Shown here one piece after another: positions 2,793 to 15,173 of a stretch of DNA of 20,596 nt. The stretch is from Candidatus Hermodarchaeota archaeon (GTDB taxonomy: Archaea > Asgardarchaeota > Thorarchaeia > Thorarchaeales > Thorarchaeaceae): positions 62,915-83,510 of the forward strand of contig JBHLLF010000010.1 in the NCBI GenBank assembly GCA_048885865.1, given 5' to 3'. Positions within the stretch are counted from its first letter, which is position 1. Each line of letters begins with the position of its first letter. The notes beneath the pieces are model-generated. The model saw only the letters and a program-made list of their open reading frames with translations, had not been told where the DNA came from and ran no database searches. Made by a program: the position numbers and the translations under genes.

Positions 2793-3518
2793 CTATCTGA
2801 AGGTACGCAGGCCCTTCTTTCCTTCCACTAGAATCAATGCCTGTGATTCAGAACCTATTGTGCTGCGCTCGACCAACACACGAATCAGATTCTTCCCAAC
2901 GTCCAGTCGATCAACTCTTACCACAGAGTCAACAGCATGAGCAAGAACATTTCCACCAATGGGTATAGGTCGACCCGAATTCCAGCTTCTAGAAGAGTGA
3001 TCTGTCATTAAAAGATGAGTTCCAATCTCATTCACTAGTTCCCTTAAGACCTCAAGACAATGAAAGAGCTCTCTTTGCCTCCCTGAACTTCCTGGAGCTC
3101 CAGAAAGATTGAGAACTCCTGTTAGACTGTCCAGCACTATTACAGATACAGAACTCAAGTTTGGAATGCTTCTACTGAGATCCTCCAGGTCTGAAAGACT
3201 CAATACATTCCCGACAATTACACGGCCCAGTATCTTTGACACCTTTTTCTTTGAATTGCACATTGCTCGAGCTAGAGTGGGACTGTAATTCGAGCCCGAG
3301 TCAATATAGACCGCAAATCCCTCATCTAGTTCAGCTGCGGCAATTGCTATGGCGTGGGCGAGAGTCGTAAGGGGAGATCGCTCAGGGCCATGAAGAAGAC
3401 TTAGTTGTTCGGGTGCGAGAATGGTTCCTAGCAAGTCGTCAAGTTGCTTCGGGGCAAGCGATATTGCGGATTGTGAATTGATATCTAGTGAATCAAGTGG
3501 AGTTCGCAAAGGTGTCAT
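2793..3518 (-). CDS. RecA/RadA-fold paralog with degenerate Walker A (probably ATPase-dead)
   Basis: LHGPERSPLTT at the P-loop position (no GK), VYIDSG, Walker B IVLDSLTG, RadA-type PIGGNVLAHAVD. Start ATG 3518 (or TTG 3509) after AGGAGG; the start is uncertain. Confidence 0.8.
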   Translation of the reverse strand: MTPLRTPLDSLDINSQSAISLAPKQLDDLLGTILAPEQLSLLHGPERSPLTTLAHAIAIAAAELDEGFAVYIDSGSNYSPTLARAMCNSKKKVSKILGRVIVGNVLSLSDLEDLSRSIPNLSSVSVIVLDSLTGVLNLSGAPGSSGRQRELFHCLEVLRELVNEIGTHLLMTDHSSRSWNSGRPIPIGGNVLAHAVDSVVRVDRLDVGKNLIRVLVERSTIGSESQALILVEGKKGLRTFR

Positions 3519-4440
3519 TGGCCTCCTTAAGATTAGTATATCTGTGAAGCAATAGTGCATTGACAAGTTCTCTTTCAGGAACTCTTTGAGAGATTAGACC
3601 TGGTGCTGCTGATTCAGGATAGATGACTCTTGGACCGGTTCTACTAGGGAAAACAAACATGCGTGAAGGAGGATTCCGTATTAGGTGATTAACAGTATCC
3701 TGATCAGTAGCCAAACAATATTCTGCCATCGAAAGGCCATGTTTCTCATCAATAAGAGGGACCTTGAGTATTGCCTCCCGCAAGAGTGGTGACGCATCAT
3801 TCTTTATTGCAACGCTTGCTCTCAAGAGAGTATCTCGAATCTGATTCAAACTTGCCCTCTCAGACTTTATTTCAATGAAGAGGACGTCGCATTCATTGAA
3901 GTGAGTCAATGAAATTGGTAGAAGTGGTCGATCTCTCATCAGCATGATAACATTCTCTCGGCTTTCAGGCGGGAGTAGTGCAATATGATCTGAAACTTGC
4001 TTGCTTATCGAAAGCTCAGGGGTTCCTGGGTTTCGGCTCAGCCAAGATATTGTCGAGTCTGGGGACAAAGTTGCCATCCATTCTTTCAGGTTGCTTGAAT
4101 CATACATTACTGAACATACAATAATCGTAAGTGCAGCACCCAAGAGGGATGGAACCATCCCATAGGGCAATAGTCCAACGAACGCTACCACTGCAAGATA
4201 TCCTGAGGCTGCATAGGCGAGTATTCCTAAAATCGCTGATAGTGCATGTTTGGCCAATAGTCGTTTCAACTGAATCAACGCCGCTGTTGTGCCAATGGCA
4301 ATAATCAGTGGAATGATATTCCCATTTCTGAAGGAAATAACCACAAGTGCCACTGATGAGAGTAATTGGGCACCACCCGCCAAAGCCATTGCTCCTGCTA
4401 TCGCCAAACCGATAATCTTCAAGATTCCTCTTCCAAGCAA
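3493..4440 (-). CDS. Membrane protein of unknown function (about 4 N-terminal TM helices plus soluble C-terminal domain)
   Basis: Hydrophobic segments IIGLAIAGAMALAGGAQLLSSVALVVISF, IIPLIIAIGTTAALI, ALSAILGILAYAASGYLAVVAFVGLL, MVPSLLGAALTIIVCSVM. Start reassigned to TTG 4440 after GAGGAGTGGT (alternative TTG 4422 overlapping the upstream TGA). Confidence 0.75.
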   Translation of the reverse strand: MLGRGILKIIGLAIAGAMALAGGAQLLSSVALVVISFRNGNIIPLIIAIGTTAALIQLKRLLAKHALSAILGILAYAASGYLAVVAFVGLLPYGMVPSLLGAALTIIVCSVMYDSSNLKEWMATLSPDSTISWLSRNPGTPELSISKQVSDHIALLPPESRENVIMLMRDRPLLPISLTHFNECDVLFIEIKSERASLNQIRDTLLRASVAIKNDASPLLREAILKVPLIDEKHGLSMAEYCLATDQDTVNHLIRNPPSRMFVFPSRTGPRVIYPESAAPGLISQRVPERELVNALLLHRYTNLKEANDTFANST

Positions 4441-5105
4441 TTCGTGACCACTCCTCGGCGATATGAAAGAGAGAGATGGCAAGCTCCGTCTTTTAGGACC
4501 TTGAGCTGCGCGATTTTGCGACCATAGCCATTCTCCACAATTGACACAGACGACACTTTGCTGGAAAAATCTCTGCAAACCTTGACAGTGATATCTGCCC
4601 ATTTTGCTATTTCATTAGAAAACACTGGATGATTGCCAATCTCAGGAAGAAATCTCATTTCACTTACAACAATGACATCTATGCCTCTTTCCCAGCATAA
4701 TGCTCCTAGTATGGGCAGCGCCTCTTCAATTAGCGCCTGCCCCCAAAGGATGGGATCAGTTCTTGACATGTCAAGCACCCTTGTAATAGGGTCAATGACA
4801 ATTAGAGAGGTGTCTGGTGCTATCGTCTTGGGCAAGCTTAACATAGCATCCAGTGTCTGCTTGTGACCTTTTGTCATCATAACAGACACATTAGTCTCTA
4901 GTCCCCTGAGATGCTTGACTGTTGCCTTCAGATGAGGTATGAACCGTTTCTTTGAGTCAGCATTTATCCACTCTACATGAGATGTACGAGATGCATCTGC
5001 TGCGATAGTCGCCGCTAGCAAAGTCTTGCCGGATCCTGCAGTTCCTGTGACATGGATAAAACCTCCGAGCTCCAATGATGCGCGAAGGCTGTATTCACTA
5101 CCCAG
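4419..5105 (-). CDS. RadB-like RecA-fold ATPase (RadA paralog lacking the N-terminal HhH domain)
   Basis: Intact Walker A TGTAGSGKT, WINADS in place of YIDTE, Walker B LIVIDPIT, late motif HPVFSNEIAKWAD. Start uncertain: CTG 5105 with GGAGG 9 nt upstream, TTG 5075, or ATG 5171. Confidence 0.8.
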   Translation of the reverse strand: MGSEYSLRASLELGGFIHVTGTAGSGKTLLAATIAADASRTSHVEWINADSKKRFIPHLKATVKHLRGLETNVSVMMTKGHKQTLDAMLSLPKTIAPDTSLIVIDPITRVLDMSRTDPILWGQALIEEALPILGALCWERGIDVIVVSEMRFLPEIGNHPVFSNEIAKWADITVKVCRDFSSKVSSVSIVENGYGRKIAQLKVLKDGACHLSLSYRRGVVTNCLEEES

Positions 5106-6709: not shown

Positions 6710-8917
6710 TCAATTTACACCTCCAAAATCTTGCTTCCTGCTTCCTGCAAGTCTTGTTTCTAATCCTTCCATCAACCTCTGCGAAACGGCCATTGGCTGT
6801 TTCAAACCCCCCACCTCTGCAACGGCTGCTATAGCGTAGAGCAACCAATGGGCGGCTTCCAGAAGCCCATAAGCATCGCCCAGATGAAATCCTGAACTAC
6901 GGGCCAACTCCTCAAGAGGAATGTCTGTCGTGGCTGCAGCAGCGACAAGATGTTCGAAAGATTCCTCAAGTGAAGTCCCCGATTCGATTGAAACCAGATG
7001 CTTCAAGAGCCATAGCAGTGCTGTGCTCTCCTCGACTCTTGGAAGTACCGCTAATAGCTCACGAATTGTTGGAATGCTGAGATAAAGCCGGTTTGCAATC
7101 CTACCCATTCGTGTAGGCTTCAGCTTTCCATCTATTCCGCCCTCGATTAAGCCCAGCCTGATGAGAAGCTCACTTGGACTTAGCTCGCTCAGCGCGACTG
7201 GAATTACATAATCTGCAAGGCTGCCTAGCTCTCTTGCTGCATACAGTCCTAAAGCAACCAAGTGAGAACATAGAACTCCATGTTGATCAATAGGTCTAGA
7301 GCATGAGCACTGCGGACCCTCCACTACACCATCAGCAGAAAGACGAGCCGAATACCTACAGGTATAGTGTCCTTCCTCCCATGCTGCTACGATGCCACCA
7401 ATAACACTATCATTTGTCTCCCTAAGGCTAATGCTCCCTAGAAGTCCCAGACGAGCTGGACGCACAGTGTCTGACAAGGCATGCTTCTCGATTGCAGATT
7501 CCGCGCTTATTTCACCCAATTGAATAACTCGCATAGGAGACCTCGTATCTCTTATTCCAGTAAATACCAGGTAGGAATCACCTAGAAAGCCGTCTGCGAT
7601 GTCTTCCAAGGTTGCTTCATCCAAAGCATCTAGTGCAACAAGCAGTTGCTCAGGCAGTGTCAACGATTCACCGAGTTTGCTAACCACACGATCATACTTT
7701 GGAAAGAGGATTTTTGTTGACGACTCATTATTCAATGACGAATCAAAGTATCTCTTTTCTACATCTTCAGCTTCTCCGGAGCTTCCAACTAGAATAATCC
7801 CAAACCCAGCCGTATCATAGCCAGGCCGACCAGCTCGACCTAGCATTTGATGAACAGAGTTGGCAGGAAGCATTTCTCGGTGATTTCCTGGAGACCGCAC
7901 ATTAGTAAGAACAACCGTCCTCGCAGGGAGATCCATTCCTGCCGCGAGTGTTGTAGTCGCGCAAATCACTCGAACTTTTCCGCGGAGAAATAGCTCCTCA
8001 ACAAGCCGCCGAGCCCGATTTCCTAGACCTGCATGATGATAAGCTGTGCCATCATGAAGAAGGGTTCTGAGTTCGGGGGGTATAGTGACATTCCAATTCT
8101 CAACTGACTCGAGCTCTGTGTCGAGATCTTCTTTTTCATTTCTAGTGAAATGTCGTCCAACATCCCCTGAAAGACGTATAGCCTGCGATTCAGCCTCGCG
8201 TCTTGTCCGATGAAAGACAATTGCCTGGCCATCACCTTGGACTGTCGTCATAACCAGTTGGCGAAGAACTCGCTCCTTGTGTTTTGAAGAGATAACACGA
8301 TAGACTAAGGGCACAGGACGTTCTTCTGATTCAACAAGAGTACAGCCGAGCCACTCAGCCAGCTCATCTGGTGAGCCAACTGTTGCTGAAAGCCCAATCA
8401 ACTGAAAACTGTCAACCATTCGCTTGAACCTGATTATGATAGATTCTAGGCGGGCACCCCTTCCAGAATCAGAAATTGTCTGAATCTCATCTATGACTAA
8501 GGAGCCGATAGAATTTAGCCAGGTAGTCTTTCTTCTCAGCAAAGAATCCGCCTTTTCGTATGTTGTCACAATGACATCATACTCCGAAAGACTCTCACCA
8601 TCATTCGAAAAATCCCCTGTACTCACACCAATTCGTAGGCCCAGAGGCTCATACCTATCTATCAGAATTCCAGACACCTGCACAGCGAGTGCCTTCAGAG
8701 GGACTAGATAGATTCCCTTCTTTCCAGTAAGTGCCGCTCTTAGGAGAGCCATCTCACCTACCAATGTCTTGCCAGAGCCAGTTGGACTGCAGACCAAAAT
8801 GCTTGCGCCATCCAGAAGGCCACGTTCGATCGAAGTTTTCTGAATCCCTCTCGGTTTAAGCCCCAGCTGATGGAGAAGCCTATGCACTTGTTCCTGAACA
8901 TCTGCTACAACCGTCAT
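6710..8917 (-). CDS. Ski2-like/Hel308-family SF2 helicase with inserted SWIM zinc finger, lacking the C-terminal HhH domain
   Basis: Q motif PRGIQ, I SPTGSGKT, Ia VPLKALA, Ib TTYEKAD, II IDEIQ, III LSAT, IV VFHRTRREAE, HHAGL, V ATTTLAAGMDLPA, VI QMLGRAGRPG. SWIM CSC-x10-CSH. Winged-helix-like LKPTRMGRIANRLYL. ATGA overlap with the upstream gene. Confidence 0.92.
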   Translation of the reverse strand: MTVVADVQEQVHRLLHQLGLKPRGIQKTSIERGLLDGASILVCSPTGSGKTLVGEMALLRAALTGKKGIYLVPLKALAVQVSGILIDRYEPLGLRIGVSTGDFSNDGESLSEYDVIVTTYEKADSLLRRKTTWLNSIGSLVIDEIQTISDSGRGARLESIIIRFKRMVDSFQLIGLSATVGSPDELAEWLGCTLVESEERPVPLVYRVISSKHKERVLRQLVMTTVQGDGQAIVFHRTRREAESQAIRLSGDVGRHFTRNEKEDLDTELESVENWNVTIPPELRTLLHDGTAYHHAGLGNRARRLVEELFLRGKVRVICATTTLAAGMDLPARTVVLTNVRSPGNHREMLPANSVHQMLGRAGRPGYDTAGFGIILVGSSGEAEDVEKRYFDSSLNNESSTKILFPKYDRVVSKLGESLTLPEQLLVALDALDEATLEDIADGFLGDSYLVFTGIRDTRSPMRVIQLGEISAESAIEKHALSDTVRPARLGLLGSISLRETNDSVIGGIVAAWEEGHYTCRYSARLSADGVVEGPQCSCSRPIDQHGVLCSHLVALGLYAARELGSLADYVIPVALSELSPSELLIRLGLIEGGIDGKLKPTRMGRIANRLYLSIPTIRELLAVLPRVEESTALLWLLKHLVSIESGTSLEESFEHLVAAAATTDIPLEELARSSGFHLGDAYGLLEAAHWLLYAIAAVAEVGGLKQPMAVSQRLMEGLETRLAGSRKQDFGGVN

Positions 8918-11271
8918 CTTTCTGATTCATCCCTCTGTGTCACTTGATGAAGAGCCATGCTGCCCTTCATGGTGATTCTGTAATTTGTGTACGAAACCGC
9001 CCCATGGACCTCATGACCCCTAAGTATCATACCTGATTTTTCCAGCCTAGCAAGCACACCACTGATGTCGGGATCCTCATTCACATCTCCTGAAAGGAGA
9101 AATTTCCTCATTGCCTCCTCTGTCAGTGGTTCATACCTTTCAAGCAGTCGAAGCATCTTGATAGCTGTAGTTTTCTGTCCTCCAGCGACTCGATCAATCA
9201 GTGAATCGCTAAAGGCCACTCCTTCAGTGGGAAACTCCTGAGGAATGAAATCAGAAATGCGTTTCTCCATCTCCTCAGGATGGAGCATAGTAAGATGGGC
9301 CGCTTCATCCAGCATAACTGGCATGCATGTTTCGCCCTGGTTTCGGACCAACAGTACTACTCCGTCAGGCATAACTCTCAGGTAAGATGTTTCTCTGGAT
9401 GATTGACGCGCCTTGCTATGCATGCCCGACGAAACAACACTGATGCCAAGCAATTCCACGGCTGTCTTAATGTCTGGACTCTCGCGAAGTCGATGAGTGA
9501 TGCATGAGCTCAATCTGCCAATGGCACCAGGCGACATATCCACTGGATGATCCAGCGTGACAATCGTGGGACCTCTTTGTAACATATCCCGAAGCATCAT
9601 CTCACTCCAAGAGTCCCTCTTCATATATCGCCGGTTTCGAATCCTCATGTTCTCCGCATTCTCAAGTATGACAACGAGATTCTGGTCCTGTTGGAGTCCT
9701 GAAAGCTTGATGCACACAAGATCGAAAGCGAATTTCTCCATTGGCAAATATCCTTGGGATAAAATCAATACGCTCAGATTAGCCTGCGACAGATCGCGCA
9801 TGGCAATTGTCTGAGAACCATAGAAGGAACGTGCCGCAGTTCCTTGGTGTAGAGACCTTATTGCCTCATAACCTGAAACACTTCTATCAGATGGCTTTCG
9901 CTCGTTCTGCGCTGCTGCCTCTGAGTATGTATCCATGACATCTGGTGTCTGGGTTAGTTGAACGTCAGCCACAGTTGTGTTGCCTAACGCAATGGCACGA
10001 TTGATTGCAAGTTCAAGATCAGTTGCACCGCGAAGGTCAGTCCCCGCAATTACCTCTAGAGCAGTCATCAATTTGGACACATAGATATGTCTTGGAAGCC
10101 CCTCTGCATCCATAGGATTTAGTACTAGATCTTTGCCAAGCTCAAATGATACTGCACCTTCAGAAAGAGATGCGAAATTCTTTGCATCTCGTTCATTGCT
10201 CGCGATAATGACCCGTTTTCCATGTGAAAGAAGCTGTTTAACAATGAGAGTGAGTGTATGCCTTCTTTCTTCCAAAGTCCCTCCGCAGACTAATAGTCCA
10301 GATTGAATATCCTCATGTGATAGCCCAGCAGCAGGTCCAGGCCGAAGGGTTTCGGGATTTATCACGCGGCCAATGCAATAATCTCCTGCTCTGGGCTTTA
10401 TGGGTGCAAGGAACTCACCTGGAACATTTGATCCAATCTCAGATGCAAGCTCACTAGGAATCTGTATCAACCACTCTGAGAGTTCGGTTCCTGCGGCATA
10501 GAATAGTGGAAGCCGAGGTGCCATGTTCATCGCCCGCATATTCGAAGCTAAAGATTCGGGCTTTGCTTTTGACCAGTTTCCATCCGGAACTGCTGCCTTA
10601 ATCGATGATTCGAATTTTTGAACCTGATCGATATCCTGTGAGTGCCCCAAAATCGAAACTCGGACGGACCAAAGGCCTCCGCGCCTGGTCATATATGCAT
10701 CCAATCCACCGCTTGAAAGATAGTTCAAGTAGCCATCCAATCGGGATGATAGACGCTCTTCCTCCACGATGGATGAGGATTCTTCTGGCCTTACTATCAC
10801 TGATAAACAGAATCCCTTTGAGCTATCGATGGCTCTAACGAGTGCACTCACATTCCCGACTAATAGAGGGCTAGCCCATGGCAGCTCCAATCCTATCACA
10901 TTGCGATTGCCAGATGGCGTTTTACACTGAACGACATTGTGTTCTCCATTCACTTCGATAGATATATCGCTCTCAGGAACACGAATCCATTCTGATTCTT
11001 CTAGGGAGTGAACCTCTTGTGAGGTCCTCAGTTTGGGTACTAATATCGTTACAAGAAGACTACCGAGGGAAACCAGAGCAAGACTCCATGGCAGTGCCGC
11101 AAGAATGACTGCTACAGTGATTGCTGTGATTGCATCACGGCCGTGAGAAGGTTTCACTCTACGGTCATCCCATTGAAGATCAATCCCACCACTCACAGTC
11201 ATGGTGGGCTGAGATATCTCCTTCAGTGGATCAACCTCGGGCTCAGTACCGAGAATCAGACGCTTACCCAA
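8914..11271 (-). CDS. Membrane-anchored HerA/VirB4(CedB)-like P-loop protein with degenerate Walker motifs and C-terminal winged helix
   Basis: Start TTG 11271 after AGGAGG (8-nt spacer). N-terminal TM hairpin AITAITVAVILAALPWSLALVSLGSLLVTILV. HerA-like order of motifs: YCIGRVI..., LLVCGGTLEERRHT (Walker A position), LVLNPMD, LVVILENAEN (Walker B position), TLDHPVDM, CITHRL, MPDGVVLL. wHTH VLARLEKSGMI...YRITMKG. Confidence 0.72.
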   Translation of the reverse strand: MGKRLILGTEPEVDPLKEISQPTMTVSGGIDLQWDDRRVKPSHGRDAITAITVAVILAALPWSLALVSLGSLLVTILVPKLRTSQEVHSLEESEWIRVPESDISIEVNGEHNVVQCKTPSGNRNVIGLELPWASPLLVGNVSALVRAIDSSKGFCLSVIVRPEESSSIVEEERLSSRLDGYLNYLSSGGLDAYMTRRGGLWSVRVSILGHSQDIDQVQKFESSIKAAVPDGNWSKAKPESLASNMRAMNMAPRLPLFYAAGTELSEWLIQIPSELASEIGSNVPGEFLAPIKPRAGDYCIGRVINPETLRPGPAAGLSHEDIQSGLLVCGGTLEERRHTLTLIVKQLLSHGKRVIIASNERDAKNFASLSEGAVSFELGKDLVLNPMDAEGLPRHIYVSKLMTALEVIAGTDLRGATDLELAINRAIALGNTTVADVQLTQTPDVMDTYSEAAAQNERKPSDRSVSGYEAIRSLHQGTAARSFYGSQTIAMRDLSQANLSVLILSQGYLPMEKFAFDLVCIKLSGLQQDQNLVVILENAENMRIRNRRYMKRDSWSEMMLRDMLQRGPTIVTLDHPVDMSPGAIGRLSSCITHRLRESPDIKTAVELLGISVVSSGMHSKARQSSRETSYLRVMPDGVVLLVRNQGETCMPVMLDEAAHLTMLHPEEMEKRISDFIPQEFPTEGVAFSDSLIDRVAGGQKTTAIKMLRLLERYEPLTEEAMRKFLLSGDVNEDPDISGVLARLEKSGMILRGHEVHGAVSYTNYRITMKGSMALHQVTQRDESER

Positions 11272-11566
11272 CTGAAGTTCCTCCTGCTGTTGAAATTGAT
11301 TTAATCTGGCGTCGCAGCATCTCAAGCACGCGCTGCAACCTCTCCGCGTAGACGGCATCTGATCCTGACACGAGGAGCAAATTCTCTCCAACAAGAAGAA
11401 TCTCTGGCATGTTTCCAAGATCTGATGATCCATGAGCAACGAGTGTCGGGCATTTTGTCAGCACCAGCCAATTATAGCCATGGCCCACCTCAAGTGAATG
11501 CATCACTGCTTCGTGTGTCACGCCAAATGGAAGCTCGATGGCTATCCTATCACCTGATTTGAGCAT
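11264..11566 (-). CDS. Small hypothetical protein (about 100 aa)
   Basis: ATG 11566 follows GGAGGTG. Fills the gap between two operon genes and overlaps both; its 3' end carries the SD of the next gene. Confidence 0.7.
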   Translation of the reverse strand: MLKSGDRIAIELPFGVTHEAVMHSLEVGHGYNWLVLTKCPTLVAHGSSDLGNMPEILLVGENLLLVSGSDAVYAERLQRVLEMLRRQIKSISTAGGTSVG

Positions 11567-12149
11567 ATGGCTCAACACCTCCTGAGGTCACCATCAGCAA
11601 ATCGTCCAACCCTGCTAGATCAATAGGCATGTGAGGATAGGCAGCTCTCATTGAACTCTCAAGGACTGTCGCGTCAGCAACAATTTCATCTGCGATCGAA
11701 GATGCCTTCTTTATCCCATCTAGGAACCGAATGCCCCTTCTCGCAACAAGCATCCCCGCACGGGTGATACCATCTCCTGCGGGTCTGCAGATAAAGAACC
11801 GAACCTCTCCATTCTTCTTCCCATCATATCGCGCATGAAGAGCTCGGAGCACTTTAGATGCTGAATGGCTAAGGTCCAGACCGATAGGTACACTTGTCAT
11901 CAATCGTCCTGCTATGACCTCCAGTGTAAATGGCCAAAGAATGGCAAGGACGCCTCGCTGATCATCCCAAACAATGAGAGGTGGCTGATAGTTCCTCCAA
12001 CTCAGAACCACGAATCCTACAGATATTATGGTGACTAAAGACAGAAGAACTTCCAGATTTCCCCAATACATCCAGATTCCCAGAACAGCACCAAGTATCA
12101 ATGTGCTGAGGCCAATCCATCTAATCTCCCATCGCTCATACCATGCCAA
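11550..12149 (-). CDS. Membrane protein (2 N-terminal TM helices) whose soluble domain resembles the N-terminal domain of the downstream HerA/VirB4-like protein
   Basis: TTG 12149 after GGAGG (9-nt spacer). TM segments WIGLSTLILGAVLGIWMYW and VLLSLVTIISVGFVVLSW. Motif VLESSMRAAYP. Confidence 0.78.
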   Translation of the reverse strand: MAWYERWEIRWIGLSTLILGAVLGIWMYWGNLEVLLSLVTIISVGFVVLSWRNYQPPLIVWDDQRGVLAILWPFTLEVIAGRLMTSVPIGLDLSHSASKVLRALHARYDGKKNGEVRFFICRPAGDGITRAGMLVARRGIRFLDGIKKASSIADEIVADATVLESSMRAAYPHMPIDLAGLDDLLMVTSGGVEPYAQIR

Positions 12150-12150
12150 G

Positions 12151-14106
12151 TCAACTTCCCTCCCTTAATGCTATGAACTGTGAAATAGCTGTCTTCAGCT
12201 CAGCAACATCCCCAAAGGGCCAGATATCAGCTACCATGTCATCGCCGAACACCCGGACATGCTTGAGAAAACGCTTGTCTAAAAGTACGACAATACCCCA
12301 GTCCTCAGGCGCTCTTCTTAGTCTTCCAAGAACTTGGGCAACCTGACGAATAGATGGGACTAGCGCTCCGTAATAGTAACCGGCTCCTTCTCCGAAGCGA
12401 GTGTCATAGAACTCCTGCAATGCCCTTTGGTAGCTCGTAGGAGGGGAGAATGGAATCCCGACTCCAATAATCAGATCTATCATACTAGAGCCGCCTTTCA
12501 CCAGGTCAATCCCCTCTGAGAATTTCCCTCCGAAAACACAGAAGATGGCGTGAGGGCCAATTTCCAAAGCTTCTGCGACAGTTTCAATGCGGTCACCTCT
12601 CTCTTCGATCAGTATTCCGCGATATCCAGAGTCAATGCCGTAGCTTAAGACCTCATGAAGGATCTTGTAACTTGGAAACGCAATGAGCGCACTCTTATTT
12701 GCGGGAACTGTTGTGAGTACTATTTTTATTCTCTCAGCTAGTGCACGCCAGAGATCAGGGCTTCTTGCCTGGTACTTTGTTGTAAGCTCCCTGTCAATGA
12801 GCACTAGTCTTGTCGACCGTGGATAAGGACTTGCCAAGTCCTCTGTTATTGCACCTCCAACTCCCAATAACCTTGCATAATGGTCTAGGGGTCTCAGGGT
12901 TCCAGACATCAGCAGCGCAGACTTTGCACCCCTGAGGACAGGCGCAGTTAGACCGGATGCGTTTAGTGGGCGAATCATTAGTGTAGCTTTCGAAGCGGTC
13001 AATGCTTCATCCCAAGACCGTTTCACGTTGAGTGTCACATGCCATCCTTCACTTCTGGTGGATAGGTTGGCAACAAAGAGGAACTCAACAAGCCTGTCGA
13101 GGGGAGTTTCCATTGAAACAGCCTCCTCGGGATCACCAATACTAGGGCTAGTAGTTTCATGCATGAGTCGCAAATCAGACTCCTTGATGAATCTAGGAGC
13201 CACATCCCATTTAGCGAGTGTACGCTCTGATCTCCTGTTCATCCCATCAAGATTGAGCATCATCGTTTCATGGAGAAAGTCCACTGCCTCTCCAATCCAG
13301 TCTATTCGGGTCTCCTTGACAATCTCTGCTTTGTGGTCTCTTAGCCATCGGAGGTCTTCACCATTCAGCCTGGCTGTTTCCGAGTCGAGCGCATGGTCTG
13401 ACAGATTGTGGGCTTCATCAACAAGTAGGTCCGCATCATGGAGTGAAATTCCCAATGATGTAAGAAGAGCCTCCCGTACCCGTGACCTAAACATATAGCT
13501 ATATGGTCCAATAATGACCTTGCTCTCTCTCGCACACCAGCGCATCACTTCATATGGGCACACACCTTCGGCACTGCAGAGGTCTTCCACTCTTTCACGT
13601 GTCACAACACCAGTGCTTAGCAATTCCTCAACGCGTTCTCGAACCCACTCTCTGATGACACTTCGACCATCGCTGGAGTTCTTTCGATAGACATTGTGAT
13701 AGTACGTACACTGCCCTGTCTTGATCATCGACGCGCAGGCTCGCATAAAGCCTGTAGAGGTGTCGGAGTCAATCTCGCTTCTAATTGGACACATATGGAT
13801 CCTCGACACCATCGTTGTGGCTGTAAGTTCAGGCATCATTGCCCTCAGAACGTCAAGTTCAATCTCGAACACTCTTGACTGACTGTGAGTTCTTGTCAGC
13901 ACGATCAACCTTGAGCTCGAATCACTACCTCTTGCAGCAAGATATCCTGAAAGGACAGCCACAGTTTTACCGACCCCGCAATCGGCAGAGAGCAATCCCA
14001 CTGTCTGTGACGAAAAGACCTCAGCAGCAAACCGCACAGCCTTGTCCTGATGCAGTCTAGGTGTATAAGGAAACCATGCGAGAGGGTCAGTGATAGCAGT
14101 ACTCAA
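12151..14106 (-). CDS. XPD/Rad3/DinG-family Fe-S cluster 5'-3' DNA helicase
   Basis: Q motif YTPRLHQ, I ADCGVGKT, Ia LTRTHSQ. Four Fe-S cysteines (SRIHMCP, RACA, GQCTYY, GVCPYE). II LVDEAHNL, III MSGTL, AFPSY, GGKFSEGIDL, VGIPF, VI QVLGRLRRAPEDWG...LLDKRF. TTG start with GGAGG, TTGA overlap. Confidence 0.95.
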   Translation of the reverse strand: MSTAITDPLAWFPYTPRLHQDKAVRFAAEVFSSQTVGLLSADCGVGKTVAVLSGYLAARGSDSSSRLIVLTRTHSQSRVFEIELDVLRAMMPELTATTMVSRIHMCPIRSEIDSDTSTGFMRACASMIKTGQCTYYHNVYRKNSSDGRSVIREWVRERVEELLSTGVVTRERVEDLCSAEGVCPYEVMRWCARESKVIIGPYSYMFRSRVREALLTSLGISLHDADLLVDEAHNLSDHALDSETARLNGEDLRWLRDHKAEIVKETRIDWIGEAVDFLHETMMLNLDGMNRRSERTLAKWDVAPRFIKESDLRLMHETTSPSIGDPEEAVSMETPLDRLVEFLFVANLSTRSEGWHVTLNVKRSWDEALTASKATLMIRPLNASGLTAPVLRGAKSALLMSGTLRPLDHYARLLGVGGAITEDLASPYPRSTRLVLIDRELTTKYQARSPDLWRALAERIKIVLTTVPANKSALIAFPSYKILHEVLSYGIDSGYRGILIEERGDRIETVAEALEIGPHAIFCVFGGKFSEGIDLVKGGSSMIDLIIGVGIPFSPPTSYQRALQEFYDTRFGEGAGYYYGALVPSIRQVAQVLGRLRRAPEDWGIVVLLDKRFLKHVRVFGDDMVADIWPFGDVAELKTAISQFIALREGS

Positions 14107-14729: not shown

Positions 14730-15173
14730 CTACCACGCCTCCATTGGAATGGTGACTAGCACACCGTTCTTGATTACCTCGCCCTCTGAAACGAGGGAGT
14801 CAAGGAAGGTCATTGCACGAGAGATATCGATGCCTGCATCGCTGCATTCTCTCATGACATCTTCAATCGAAACTGGTCGCCCTCTGTTGAGGTCAACTAG
14901 CGCTTCGACGATATAATAGACACGCCTCTTAATGCCCAAGCCCCTCCCTCCGCCCCGAGGTTTGGCATTCTGGCGCGATTCTAGCACAAGCTCACGGACA
15001 CTCGCTTGGGCTTCTTGAATTGTAACTGCATAGATTGTTCCAGGTGCATGAAGAATCAGACTCCTGCATAGGCTGCATCTTGACTCCTCTTGCTCATTCT
15101 CGACAGCTGTGTATCCTATGTTGGTGCAACTGGGGCACTGGTAAACTCTGAACATCCCTCGTTCTGAGGTCAC
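14730..15173 (-). CDS. Zn-ribbon (CxxC...CxxC) plus C-terminal winged-helix protein (DUF1922/DUF5817-like architecture)
   Basis: YQCPSC...SRCSLC, a Gly/basic linker (KPRGGGRGLGIKRR), and wHTH-like IVEALVDLNRGRPVSIEDVMRECSDAGIDISRAMTFLDSLVSEGEV. GTGA overlap with the radA stop. The family name is from recall only. Confidence 0.78.
   Translation of the reverse strand: MTSERGMFRVYQCPSCTNIGYTAVENEQEESRCSLCRSLILHAPGTIYAVTIQEAQASVRELVLESRQNAKPRGGGRGLGIKRRVYYIVEALVDLNRGRPVSIEDVMRECSDAGIDISRAMTFLDSLVSEGEVIKNGVLVTIPMEAW

What the first reader, a model, noticed from the sequence alone, without database searches (positions are those of the whole stretch)
8914..11271. Membrane-anchored HerA/VirB4-like pseudo-ATPase with a winged-helix tail
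Seen: the motif order of the HerA/FtsK/VirB4 fold is retained, but Walker A reads CGGTLEERRHT (about 10255-10290, no GKS/T), Walker B reads ILENAEN (no DE), and the TQxP motif reads LDHP. The protein has an N-terminal TM hairpin and a C-terminal wHTH. The ORF is intact over 785 codons, so it is not a simple pseudogene. Inference: a catalytically dead ring scaffold or DNA conduit, possibly powered by the adjacent helicases or by an active HerA encoded elsewhere.
Basis: partly seen in the sequence, partly recalled or inferred. Interest (0 to 1): 0.8.

Follow-up and report, generated by a model that had tools for sequence, protein, structure and literature searches.

The report
Motor-dead VirB4/HerA-like membrane protein, Thorarchaeota
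This Asgard-archaeal gene encodes a membrane-anchored protein shaped like the ATP-driven DNA pumps of conjugation and DNA-import machines, but its ATP-binding loop has been rewritten in every relative; because it is strongly conserved inside a DNA-recombination operon, it most likely docks DNA and helicases at the membrane rather than acting as a motor.

Summary
Window 8914-11271 (- strand) is an intact 785-codon gene with a TTG start and an AGGAGG ribosome-binding site.

- **Fold:** the predicted structure is a VirB4/HerA/TrwB-type P-loop fold (VirB4 C-terminal domain 4ag5, Z 28.3, rmsd 2.7 Å over 323 residues).
- **Ends:** an N-terminal 33-residue hydrophobic hairpin and a C-terminal PadR-like winged helix.
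- **Walker A:** it reads G-G-x-x-x-x-R. Alignments to active homologues put the conserved R336 exactly on the Walker A lysine. The second glycine and the Ser/Thr are missing in 124 orthologues and in 30 distant Asgard relatives.
- **Walker B:** the acidic residue is kept, but the catalytic-Glu position varies freely.
- **Selection:** dN/dS is about 0.1, so this is not a decaying gene.
- **Context:** the gene is single copy in 52 of 76 sampled genomes of its family. It always lies between XPD and a Hel308-like helicase (4-nt overlap) in an operon that carries a second RadA.
- **Distant paralogues:** some sit directly upstream of an active HerA-like ATPase.

Best reading: a non-hydrolysing membrane hub. 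Ring formation, DNA binding and partner contacts are inferred, not shown. This scan found the same family earlier in other Thorarchaeota genomes and reached similar conclusions. I found no published description in the papers searched.

The parts
8914..11271 (-). CDS of the 785-aa VirB4/HerA-like protein (stop codon 8914-8916)
   Evidence: orthologues colinear over the full length
11280..11285 (-). AGGAGG ribosome-binding site, 8 nt before the TTG start
11152..11271 (-). Conserved cytosolic N-terminal peptide (res 1-40; P15 and R37 invariant; G8, P11, D14, W34 in at least 90%)
11035..11133 (-). Hydrophobic hairpin, res 47-79, central Pro61
   Evidence: hydropathy > 1.6 over 46-82; uncharged 29-43 aa stretch, or two halves, in all homologues
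10486..10986 (-). N-domain, res 96-262, alpha/beta; aligned with part of the TrwK/VirB4 N-terminal domain only in full-length superpositions
   Evidence: 8rtd_O model range 100-675, Z 19.8, rmsd 7.7 Å
10387..10503 (-). Very strongly conserved linker, res 257-295 (W267, Q270, E274, L275, G280, P284, F287 invariant), low model confidence; candidate partner-binding element
   Evidence: dN ~0 in close pairs
9232..10386 (-). VirB4/HerA-type P-loop-fold domain, res 296-680
   Evidence: 4ag5_B Z 28.3, rmsd 2.7 Å, 323 aligned, model 290-660
10255..10287 (-). Rewritten Walker A, CGGTLEERRHT (res 329-339); G330, G331, R336 invariant in alignment A1
9787..10092 (-). Helical insertion, res 394-495, inside the P-loop domain (as in VirB4/TrwB/HerA)
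   Evidence: secondary structure; aligned to P0190
9649..9678 (-). Walker-B-like strand LVVILENAEN (res 532-541): acid E537 kept, catalytic-Glu position N538 variable
9544..9555 (-). LDHP (res 573-576) at the sensor position
9370..9438 (-). Family-specific basic loop (res 612-634) with H618, K620, R622, R626; R622 in 124 of 124 orthologues and 29 of 30 distant relatives; 13 residues of it are absent from the active paralogue
8917..9216 (-). C-terminal PadR-like winged helix with a terminal helix, res 686-785
6710..8917 (-). Downstream Hel308-like SF2 helicase; its start overlaps the stop of the target by 4 nt, and the same overlap is seen in L009 and L010
11264..11578 (-). Upstream 104-aa gene overlapping the target start by 8 nt; function unknown

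Best explanation
The gene encodes a membrane-anchored, non-hydrolysing member of the VirB4/HerA branch of the FtsK-HerA P-loop superfamily. Its layout matches the archaeal DNA-import ATPases CedB/CedD (membrane anchor, N-domain, VirB4/HerA-type domain), with an added C-terminal PadR-like winged helix.

Shown: the fold; the family-wide rewriting of Walker A (G-G-x4-R, with Arg on the lysine position, no second Gly and no Ser/Thr); free variation at the catalytic-Glu position; strong purifying selection; single-copy vertical conservation in Thorarchaeota; and fixed placement with translational coupling to a Hel308-like helicase inside an operon with a second RadA, XPD, RadA paralogues and a FEN1-like nuclease.

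Inferred: the protein no longer works as a motor. It acts as a membrane-tethered docking hub, probably oligomeric like its relatives. It would hold DNA through the winged helix and a family-specific basic loop with conserved R622, and recruit the operon's own ATP-driven enzymes, which would supply the energy. The conserved Gly-Gly/Arg pocket probably still binds a phosphate group (nucleotide or DNA backbone) or forms an internal salt bridge that locks the domain in one state.
For: Fold: Foldseek top hits are TrwK/VirB4 7o43 (E 9e-13), HerA 4d2i and TrwB. VIA-align gives 4ag5 Z 28.3 / 2.7 Å / 323 aa, DndH-C Z 25.0 and HerA Z 24.8.

Sequence-level homology to active ATPases: the wider-family HMM hits P0190 (62.8 bits), L014_873 (60.0 bits for the whole protein) and an own-genome 1258-aa DUF87 protein (54.7 bits). 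R336 aligns on the Walker A Lys and N538 on the catalytic Glu.

Conservation of the changes: G330 in 124 of 124 orthologues, R336 in 123 of 124 orthologues and 26 of 30 distant relatives. The second-Gly position is never Gly in the orthologues. The Ser/Thr position is Thr in only 9 of 124. The catalytic-Glu position is commonly G, N, E or D.

Selection: dN/dS is 0.10-0.12 overall and 0.06-0.09 in the P-loop-fold domain.

Distribution: 52 of 76 other genomes of the same family have a match, usually one full-length copy.

Synteny: the RadA ... XPD - two small genes - target - Hel308-like order, with the 4-nt overlap, is kept at 35% and 26% identity.

Other support: the operon RadA is a second copy, with the housekeeping RadA elsewhere. 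The winged helix is confirmed. Degenerate/active pairing occurs in distant paralogues. In the tree the actives separate from the degenerates with UFBoot 97.
Against: No biochemical data exist. The conserved Gly-Gly and Arg at the P-loop, the kept Walker B acid, and the conserved R594 and R622 show that the pocket is under selection, so nucleotide binding or even slow turnover is not excluded. Oligomerisation, DNA binding by the winged helix and contact with the helicases are untested; winged helices can also bind proteins. The N-domain's likeness to the VirB4 N-terminal domain rests only on high-rmsd full-length superpositions. No pilin or clear VirB6/CedA-like channel was identified in the operon here, so the DNA-transfer analogy is by architecture only.
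Confidence: 0.6

Rival explanations
1. Nucleotide-binding switch. The rewritten P-loop still binds ATP/ADP or another phosphorylated ligand through R336 but does not hydrolyse it, so the protein is a ligand-gated regulator or assembly factor rather than an inert scaffold.
For: G330, G331 and R336 are conserved exactly at P-loop positions across relatives of about 20% identity. The Walker B acid is D/E in 123 of 124 orthologues. From established knowledge, engineered Lys-to-Arg Walker A mutants of RecA/Rad51-type ATPases keep ATP binding but lose hydrolysis (from memory, not tested here).
Against: The second glycine and the Mg-coordinating Ser/Thr are absent, and acidic residues (E/D/S) sit right before the Arg, which should disfavour a triphosphate. 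No ligand modelling or assay was possible.
Confidence: 0.25
2. Membrane-tethered transcription regulator. The PadR-like winged helix binds an operator, and the dead ATPase-fold domain serves as a sensor or oligomerisation module controlling the recombination operon.
For: The C-terminal domain matches PadR/MarR regulators. It includes the terminal helix that mediates dimerisation in small PadR proteins (that role is from memory).
Against: The winged-helix tail is also aligned in the 1258-aa active paralogue, so it is an ancestral part of this ATPase lineage rather than a regulator add-on. The gene sits mid-operon and is translationally coupled to a helicase, which fits a stoichiometric subunit better. 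FtsK-type translocases also carry a C-terminal winged helix that reads DNA (established knowledge).
Confidence: 0.08
3. Component of a mobile element or an anti-virus defence system, not of a cellular recombination or DNA-exchange machine.
For: Distant ~850-aa paralogues lie in loci with a tyrosine-recombinase-like gene, a methyltransferase and a restriction-enzyme domain. The neighbouring helicases hit defence-library models (HamB, type IV DinG).
Against: The orthologue is usually single copy, with the same flanks (a GH3 gene on one side; a giant Ig-like/prenyltransferase protein on the other in L009 and L010) at 35% and 26% identity. It is present in most genomes of the family. The PADLOC hits are generic SF2 and XPD/DinG similarity, and the target itself has no PADLOC hit.
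Confidence: 0.07
4. A decaying pseudogene, or a lineage-specific loss of motifs in an otherwise active family.
For: Only the absence of GK[ST] in this one sequence.
Against: The frame is intact in all orthologues. dN/dS is about 0.1. The same substitutions appear in 124 orthologues and most of 30 distant relatives.
Confidence: 0.01

Closest known systems
VirB4 / TrwK (type IV secretion ATPase; PDB 4ag5, 7o43, 8rtd)
   Same: Best structural match of the P-loop-fold domain (Z 28.3, 2.7 Å, 323 aa). Full-length TrwK also aligns over model residues 100-675. Both are membrane-associated.
   Different: No GxxxxGK[ST], and the catalytic Glu is not conserved. There is no Pfam VirB4/AAA_10 hit. It carries a C-terminal winged helix. 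It sits in a recombination operon, not a recognisable T4SS cluster.
CedB / CedD of the Sulfolobales Ced DNA-import system (PMC11868833) and TedB
   Same: Architecture: TM segment + N-domain + C-terminal HerA/VirB4-like domain, as described for CedD in PMC11868833. Both are linked to DNA repair or recombination; Ced genes are DNA-damage induced and needed for DNA import.
   Different: CedB and CedD are described in PMC11868833 as carrying a C-terminal HerA/VirB4-like ATPase domain, and no loss of ATPase motifs is reported there. The target has lost the motifs and adds a winged helix. No sequence comparison with Ced proteins could be made here. No CedA1-type pilin was identified in the operon.
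HerA (archaeal end-resection translocase; PDB 4d2i, 9x1m)
   Same: Same fold (Z 24.8). The wider family profile hits DUF87 (HerA central domain) proteins. Both have a DNA-repair context.
   Different: No DUF87, HerA_C or HAS-barrel Pfam hit in the target. No NurA partner. Membrane anchored. Motifs lost.
FtsK / SpoIIIE
   Same: Same logic: N-terminal membrane anchor, a domain of the same superfamily, and a C-terminal winged helix (the FtsK gamma domain reads DNA; established knowledge). Fold match Z 16-17.
   Different: A more distant fold relative than VirB4 or HerA, an active motor, and no shared sequence family.
Asgard 1258-aa active paralogue in the same genome (G000 contig 12, L013:7534-11310) and HerA-like ATPases P0190 / L014_873
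   Same: Nearest relatives detectable by sequence (54.7, 62.8 and 60.0 bits to the family profile). Colinear P-loop-fold domain. For the 1258-aa protein, the profile's winged-helix region also aligns.
   Different: They keep GxxxxGK[ST] and hhhhEEA. The 1258-aa paralogue lacks the basic loop.

Membership tests
FtsK-HerA superfamily (ASCE P-loop fold) | RecA-like P-loop core with the strand order and helical insertions of VirB4/HerA/TrwB | tested here: met
   4ag5 Z 28.3 / 2.7 Å / 323 aa; 4d2i Z 24.8; 1gki Z 21.6; FtsK Z 16.9
FtsK-HerA superfamily (active ATPases) | Walker A GxxxxGK[ST] | tested here: not met
   the site reads G-G-T-L-E-E-R-R, and no relative has GK[ST] at this position
FtsK-HerA superfamily (active ATPases) | Walker B hhhh[DE] followed by a catalytic Glu | tested here: not met
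   the acid is kept (E537; D/E in 123 of 124), but the catalytic position is N here and commonly G, N, E or D across orthologues
VirB4 (T4SS) | VirB4-type N-terminal domain | tested here: inconclusive
   full-length TrwK rows align model 100-675 but at rmsd 7.6-8.4 Å.
VirB4 (T4SS) | Encoded with VirB2/VirB3/VirB6-type membrane components | not tested
   The operon has membrane proteins (199-aa 2-TM protein, 369-aa multi-TM protein, 536-aa 2-TM protein), but their folds were not examined
VirB4 / AAA_10 / DUF87 / HerA_C / TrwB_AAD_bind Pfam families | Profile match above the curated cut-off | tested here: not met
   no Pfam or NCBIfam hit for the target; the family profile finds no solved structure by sequence.
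CedB/CedD-like archaeal DNA-import ATPases | TM anchor + N-domain + HerA/VirB4-like C-terminal domain | tested here: met
   compared with the description in PMC11868833. Architecture only; orthology was not tested.
PadR-like winged helix | wHTH fold with a C-terminal helix | tested here: met
   pLDDT 89; 3elk_B TM 0.73, rmsd 2.1 Å, 86 columns. Pfam hits to WH families are all below cut-off.

The most novel reading that the evidence does not exclude
Thorarchaeota, and more loosely other Asgard archaea, may possess an undescribed membrane-bound machine for DNA intake or exchange coupled to recombination. In it, a motor-dead VirB4-type ring would be the cytoplasmic docking port. Its rewritten P-loop (Gly-Gly ... 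Arg) and the loop with conserved R622 would grip a phosphate of DNA or a nucleotide as a gate. The translationally coupled Hel308-like helicase, XPD and a private RadA would replace the lost motor and feed the DNA directly into homologous recombination.
Probability: 0.2. Interest if true: 0.85.

Novelty: new variant of a known kind. Interest (0 to 1): 0.62.

Why it matters
VirB4/HerA-type ATPases are the engines of conjugation, archaeal DNA import (Ced/Ted) and DNA end resection. Here a whole Asgard-wide branch has replaced the ATP-binding lysine by a conserved arginine while staying under strong selection. In Thorarchaeota it became a fixed subunit of an operon with a second RadA, RadA paralogues, XPD, a Hel308-like helicase and a FEN1-like nuclease.

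This has three consequences:
- It is a natural example of a P-loop motor turned into a scaffold or switch.
- It defines a protein family that Pfam and NCBIfam do not currently cover.

Tried and rejected
- **Sequence-only searches of the target:** Pfam, NCBIfam and PADLOC gave nothing. phmmer and a family profile against PDB sequences gave only chance hits. The relation to known ATPases needs fold comparison or the wider Asgard profile.
- **Complex prediction:** two copies of residues 292-680 gave no verdict (score 0.00). This is no evidence either way on oligomerisation.
- **Paralogy of the 199-aa 2-TM neighbour with the target's N-terminal module:** BLASTP was not significant. hhalign of A4 against A3 gave probability 0.9%, E 0.06. 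Not supported with these alignments.
- **AAA_10 (PF12846) in the own genome:** no match (genome 87% complete).
- **Literature:** four searches found no paper that describes this family or operon. The library is limited to open-access papers and bioRxiv.
- **Rfam and tRNA scans of the window:** nothing found.
- **Pseudogene reading:** rejected.
- **Lineage-specific decay:** rejected.
Full report
**1. The gene**

The - strand frame 8914-11439 is open for 841 codons. The real start is the TTG at 11271: it lies 8 nt downstream of AGGAGG. Orthologues from seven other genomes begin at the same residue (MGKRLILG / LGKRLILG), some with ATG. The product has 785 residues.

The gene overlaps the upstream 104-aa gene by 8 nt and the downstream helicase gene by 4 nt. 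It is one of about 15 co-oriented, tightly packed genes on the - strand:
- two unknown genes, then RadA (15170-16237), then two more unknown genes;
- XPD (12151-14106);
- a 199-aa 2-TM protein and a 104-aa protein;
- the target;
- a Hel308-like helicase (6710-8917);
- a 536-aa membrane protein, a RecA/KaiC-like P-loop protein and a 369-aa multi-TM protein;
- a RadA paralogue and a FEN1/XPG nuclease.

**2. Family**

The target has no Pfam, NCBIfam or PADLOC hit and no sequence-level hit to any solved structure, even with a family profile.

Database searches find 118 near-length homologues. All that carry a name are called 'hypothetical protein'; most of these are from Thorarchaeota MAGs, and identity goes down to 35%. 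An exhaustive HMMER search over 1.8 billion representatives finds 75 hits, with a tail of 21-27% identity proteins of 500-1300 aa. The named ones in that tail come from Sigynarchaeota and Promethearchaeota, that is, other Asgard lineages.

In a sample of 300 genomes of the phylum, 52 of 76 other genomes of the window's own family have a match, usually a single full-length copy. Many of the genomes without a match are incomplete. Other families show only distant matches of 19-31% identity.

**3. Fold**

An AlphaFold2 model built on a 35-sequence alignment has mean pLDDT 77.6, with values near 90 through most of the P-loop-fold core.

| Match | Score |
|---|---|
| TrwK/VirB4 7o43 (Foldseek top hit) | E 9e-13 |
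| VirB4 C-terminal domain 4ag5_B | Z 28.3, rmsd 2.7 Å, 323 residues, model 290-660 |
| DndH C-domain 7es4 | Z 25.0 |
| HerA 4d2i | Z 24.8 |
| TrwB | Z 21.6 |
| FtsK | Z about 17 |

Foldseek also lists HerA 4d2i, HerA-type defence ATPases and TrwB among its top hits. Full-length TrwK rows extend the alignment to model residue 100, but at rmsd 7.6-8.4 Å. The N-domain (96-262) is therefore only compatible with a VirB4-type N-domain. I could not fold it separately.

The protein-language-model search also places the protein next to archaeal DUF87 / TrwB_AAD_bind / AAA_10 clusters.

**4. The motifs**

A profile built from the Thorarchaeota orthologues plus the distant Asgard relatives detects active ATPases by sequence:
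- P0190, 62.8 bits;
- L014_873, 60.0 bits for the whole protein;
- a 1258-aa DUF87 protein of the same genome (L013:7534-11310), 54.7 bits.

These alignments, and an hmmalign of all sequences, put the target's G330-G-T-L-E-E-R336-R337 on GATGTGKT, GNTRSGKS and GGTNMGKS. So R336 replaces the Walker A lysine, E335 replaces the second glycine, and R337 replaces the Ser/Thr.

Column counts over 124 orthologues and 30 distant relatives:

| Position | Orthologues (of 124) | Distant relatives (of 30) |
|---|---|---|
| G330 | 124 | 27 |
| G331 | 121 | 20 |
| R336 | 123 | 26 |
| Second-Gly position | never Gly | Gly in 1 |
| Ser/Thr position | Thr in 9 | Thr in 1 |

The one orthologue exception at R336 reads K-R with an ambiguous gap.

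For Walker B, L-V-V-I-L-E537-N538-A-E-N aligns on HLVVLEEASN and LLIILEEAHE. The first acid is D/E in 123 of 124 orthologues. The catalytic-Glu position varies freely (G most often, then N, E and D).

LDHP (573-576) aligns with IDHIP of the active P0190, so it says nothing about activity.

A 13-residue stretch within the loop 612-634 has no counterpart in the active 1258-aa paralogue. The loop is highly conserved: H618, K620 and R626 are invariant or nearly so in alignment A1, and R622 is present in 124 of 124 orthologues and 29 of 30 distant relatives.

No protein in the whole set has [AG]xxxxGK[ST] at the P-loop.

In a maximum-likelihood tree of the P-loop-fold region, the four active sequences are split from all 32 degenerate ones (UFBoot 97). 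The operon-type proteins form one clade (UFBoot 100). This fits a single ancient change. The caveats are that there are only four outgroups and that the alignment was made with the degenerate family's own profile.

**5. Selection**

Nei-Gojobori dN/dS against four close orthologues is 0.08-0.12 overall, 0.06-0.09 for the P-loop-fold domain and 0.05-0.09 for the winged helix. The linker 263-295 shows almost no amino-acid change. The gene is clearly functional.

**6. Ends of the protein**

Residues 47-79 form an uncharged hydrophobic stretch (Kyte-Doolittle above 1.6 over 46-82) with a near-invariant Pro61 in the middle. Several homologues have a polar or charged residue at that turn. This fits a tight hairpin that leaves both the conserved N-terminal peptide and the rest of the protein in the cytoplasm. 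At about 16 residues per arm it may be re-entrant rather than fully spanning.

Residues 686-785 fold with pLDDT 89 as helix-helix-helix-hairpin-helix. They match PadR-family winged helices (3elk_B TM 0.73, rmsd 2.1 Å) and MarR, TubR and TFE-alpha. Pfam matches of family members to WH4_Lhr, HTH_34, PadR and MarR are all below cut-off but point the same way.

**7. Context elsewhere**

Orthologues at 35% identity (L009) and 26% identity (L010) lie in the same gene order: GH3 / ... / RadA / two small genes / XPD / two small genes / target / Hel308-like helicase. The same 4-nt overlap with the helicase is kept.

The operon RadA scores 188.6 bits, and a second, canonical RadA (319 bits) lies on another contig. 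The operon therefore carries a private recombinase.

More distant paralogues have other contexts:
- Two ~850-aa ones (L011, L014) are immediately followed by HerA-like ATPases with intact GxxxxGKS and hhhhEEA.
- One (L015) lies near a tyrosine-recombinase-like gene, a methyltransferase and a restriction-enzyme domain.
- Two (the loci of P0164 and P0161) lie next to large M28-peptidase proteins.

Recurrent degenerate/active pairing suggests that proteins of this branch work beside a separate motor. In the Thorarchaeota operon the gene at that position is the Hel308-like helicase.

**8. Mechanism**

Shown: the fold, the rewritten motifs, their conservation, purifying selection and the fixed operon position.

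Inferred: loss of canonical ATP hydrolysis. There is no Mg-coordinating Ser/Thr, no second glycine, and the catalytic Glu is not under selection. I also infer a role as a membrane-tethered hub that binds DNA (winged helix, basic loop) and the operon's ATP-driven enzymes.

The conserved Gly-Gly/Arg and the kept Walker B acid argue that the pocket is still used. It may bind a phosphate (nucleotide or DNA) or form a locking salt bridge. I therefore give the 'nucleotide-binding switch' rival 0.25.

The one test of self-association gave no verdict.

**9. Comparison with what is known**

The closest known architecture is CedB/CedD of the Sulfolobales Ced DNA-import system: TM + N-domain + HerA/VirB4-like ATPase domain, DNA-damage induced, required for DNA import (PMC11868833). 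FtsK offers the analogy of membrane anchor + motor + C-terminal winged helix.

The target fails the defining catalytic motifs of all these families and matches none of their Pfam models. It is therefore a new, degenerate branch rather than a member. Four literature searches found no description of it.

**10. Earlier notes of this scan**

The scan has met the same family and operon in other Thorarchaeota genomes. Follow-up agents there also concluded 'ATP-dead VirB4/HerA-like hub in a membrane-anchored recombination operon'. My tests agree independently.

They add the following:
- a sequence-level mapping of Arg onto the Walker A lysine;
- counts of the motif positions over 154 proteins;
- dN/dS;
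- the family-specific loop with conserved R622;
- the PadR-type fold of the tail;
- the degenerate/active gene pairs in distant paralogues.

The note that the 199-aa neighbour is a paralogue of the target's N-terminal module was not supported by BLASTP or hhalign.

Noticed in passing
L013:7534-11310 (- strand; G000 contig 12, about 15533-19309): The same genome encodes a 1258-aa DUF87 protein with intact GATGTGKT and VVLEEAS. It is the nearest active paralogue in this genome of the target (54.7 bits to the family profile, and the profile's winged-helix region also aligns). It lies next to a 653-aa protein with Ig-like domains (Big_1, Big_3_5) and near a T2SSE-type ATPase.
   Followed up: partly
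L011:10001-14931 and L014:6535-11752: Distant ~850-aa degenerate paralogues (Arg at the Walker A Lys position) are each followed directly by an active HerA_C/TraG-P-loop-like ATPase (GIPKTGKS / LIILEEA; GGTNMGKS / LVIIEEA). Each is preceded by a weak M50-peptidase-like membrane protein and a 257-273-aa unknown protein. This is a recurrent four-gene module.
   Followed up: partly
L015:8001-18544: Another ~850-aa paralogue lies near a tyrosine-recombinase-like gene, an N6/N4 methyltransferase and an MvaI/BcnI restriction-enzyme domain. The locus looks like an integrated element or defence island.
   Followed up: no
window 9370-9438 (res 612-634): A basic loop with H618, K620, R622 and R626 is conserved (R622 in 124 of 124 orthologues and 29 of 30 distant relatives), and 13 residues of it have no counterpart in the active 1258-aa paralogue. 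Model confidence is low there. It may be a DNA-binding or inter-subunit element.
   Followed up: partly
window 11550-12149 (-): The 199-aa protein has an N-terminal hydrophobic hairpin followed by W-D-D-Q-R, which echoes the W-D-D-R-R before the hairpin of the target. Its family is restricted to the same operon. BLASTP and hhalign do not support paralogy with the target's N-terminal module.
   Followed up: yes
window 15170-16237 (-) and G000 contig 2:119191-119904: The operon RadA (188.6 bits to the Rad51 model) is a second, divergent copy. A canonical RadA (319 bits) lies elsewhere, together with three shorter RadA paralogues, one of them in this operon (2793-3566).
   Followed up: partly
window 3493-4602 (-): The 369-aa protein has a long run of hydrophobic segments (about residues 55-168) and no family hit. 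It is a candidate channel subunit (compare VirB6/CedA) that was not examined. Its listed ORF overlaps the upstream gene by 184 nt, so its true start is probably further downstream.
   Followed up: no
window 17986-19542 (+): A GH3-family gene flanks the head of the operon, here divergently oriented, and the same neighbour is kept in L009 and L010 at 35% and 26% identity of the target. This argues for a stable chromosomal location.
   Followed up: partly
The genome search rows for G088, G038, G064, G028, G070, G047 (family f19): All six sampled genomes of one other Asgard family carry a ~535-aa soluble version that lacks the hairpin and N-domain (query 254-780, 21-23% identity). The ~530-aa representatives of the same length class (P0157, P0159, P0160, P0163) have Arg at the Walker A Lys position.
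   Followed up: no
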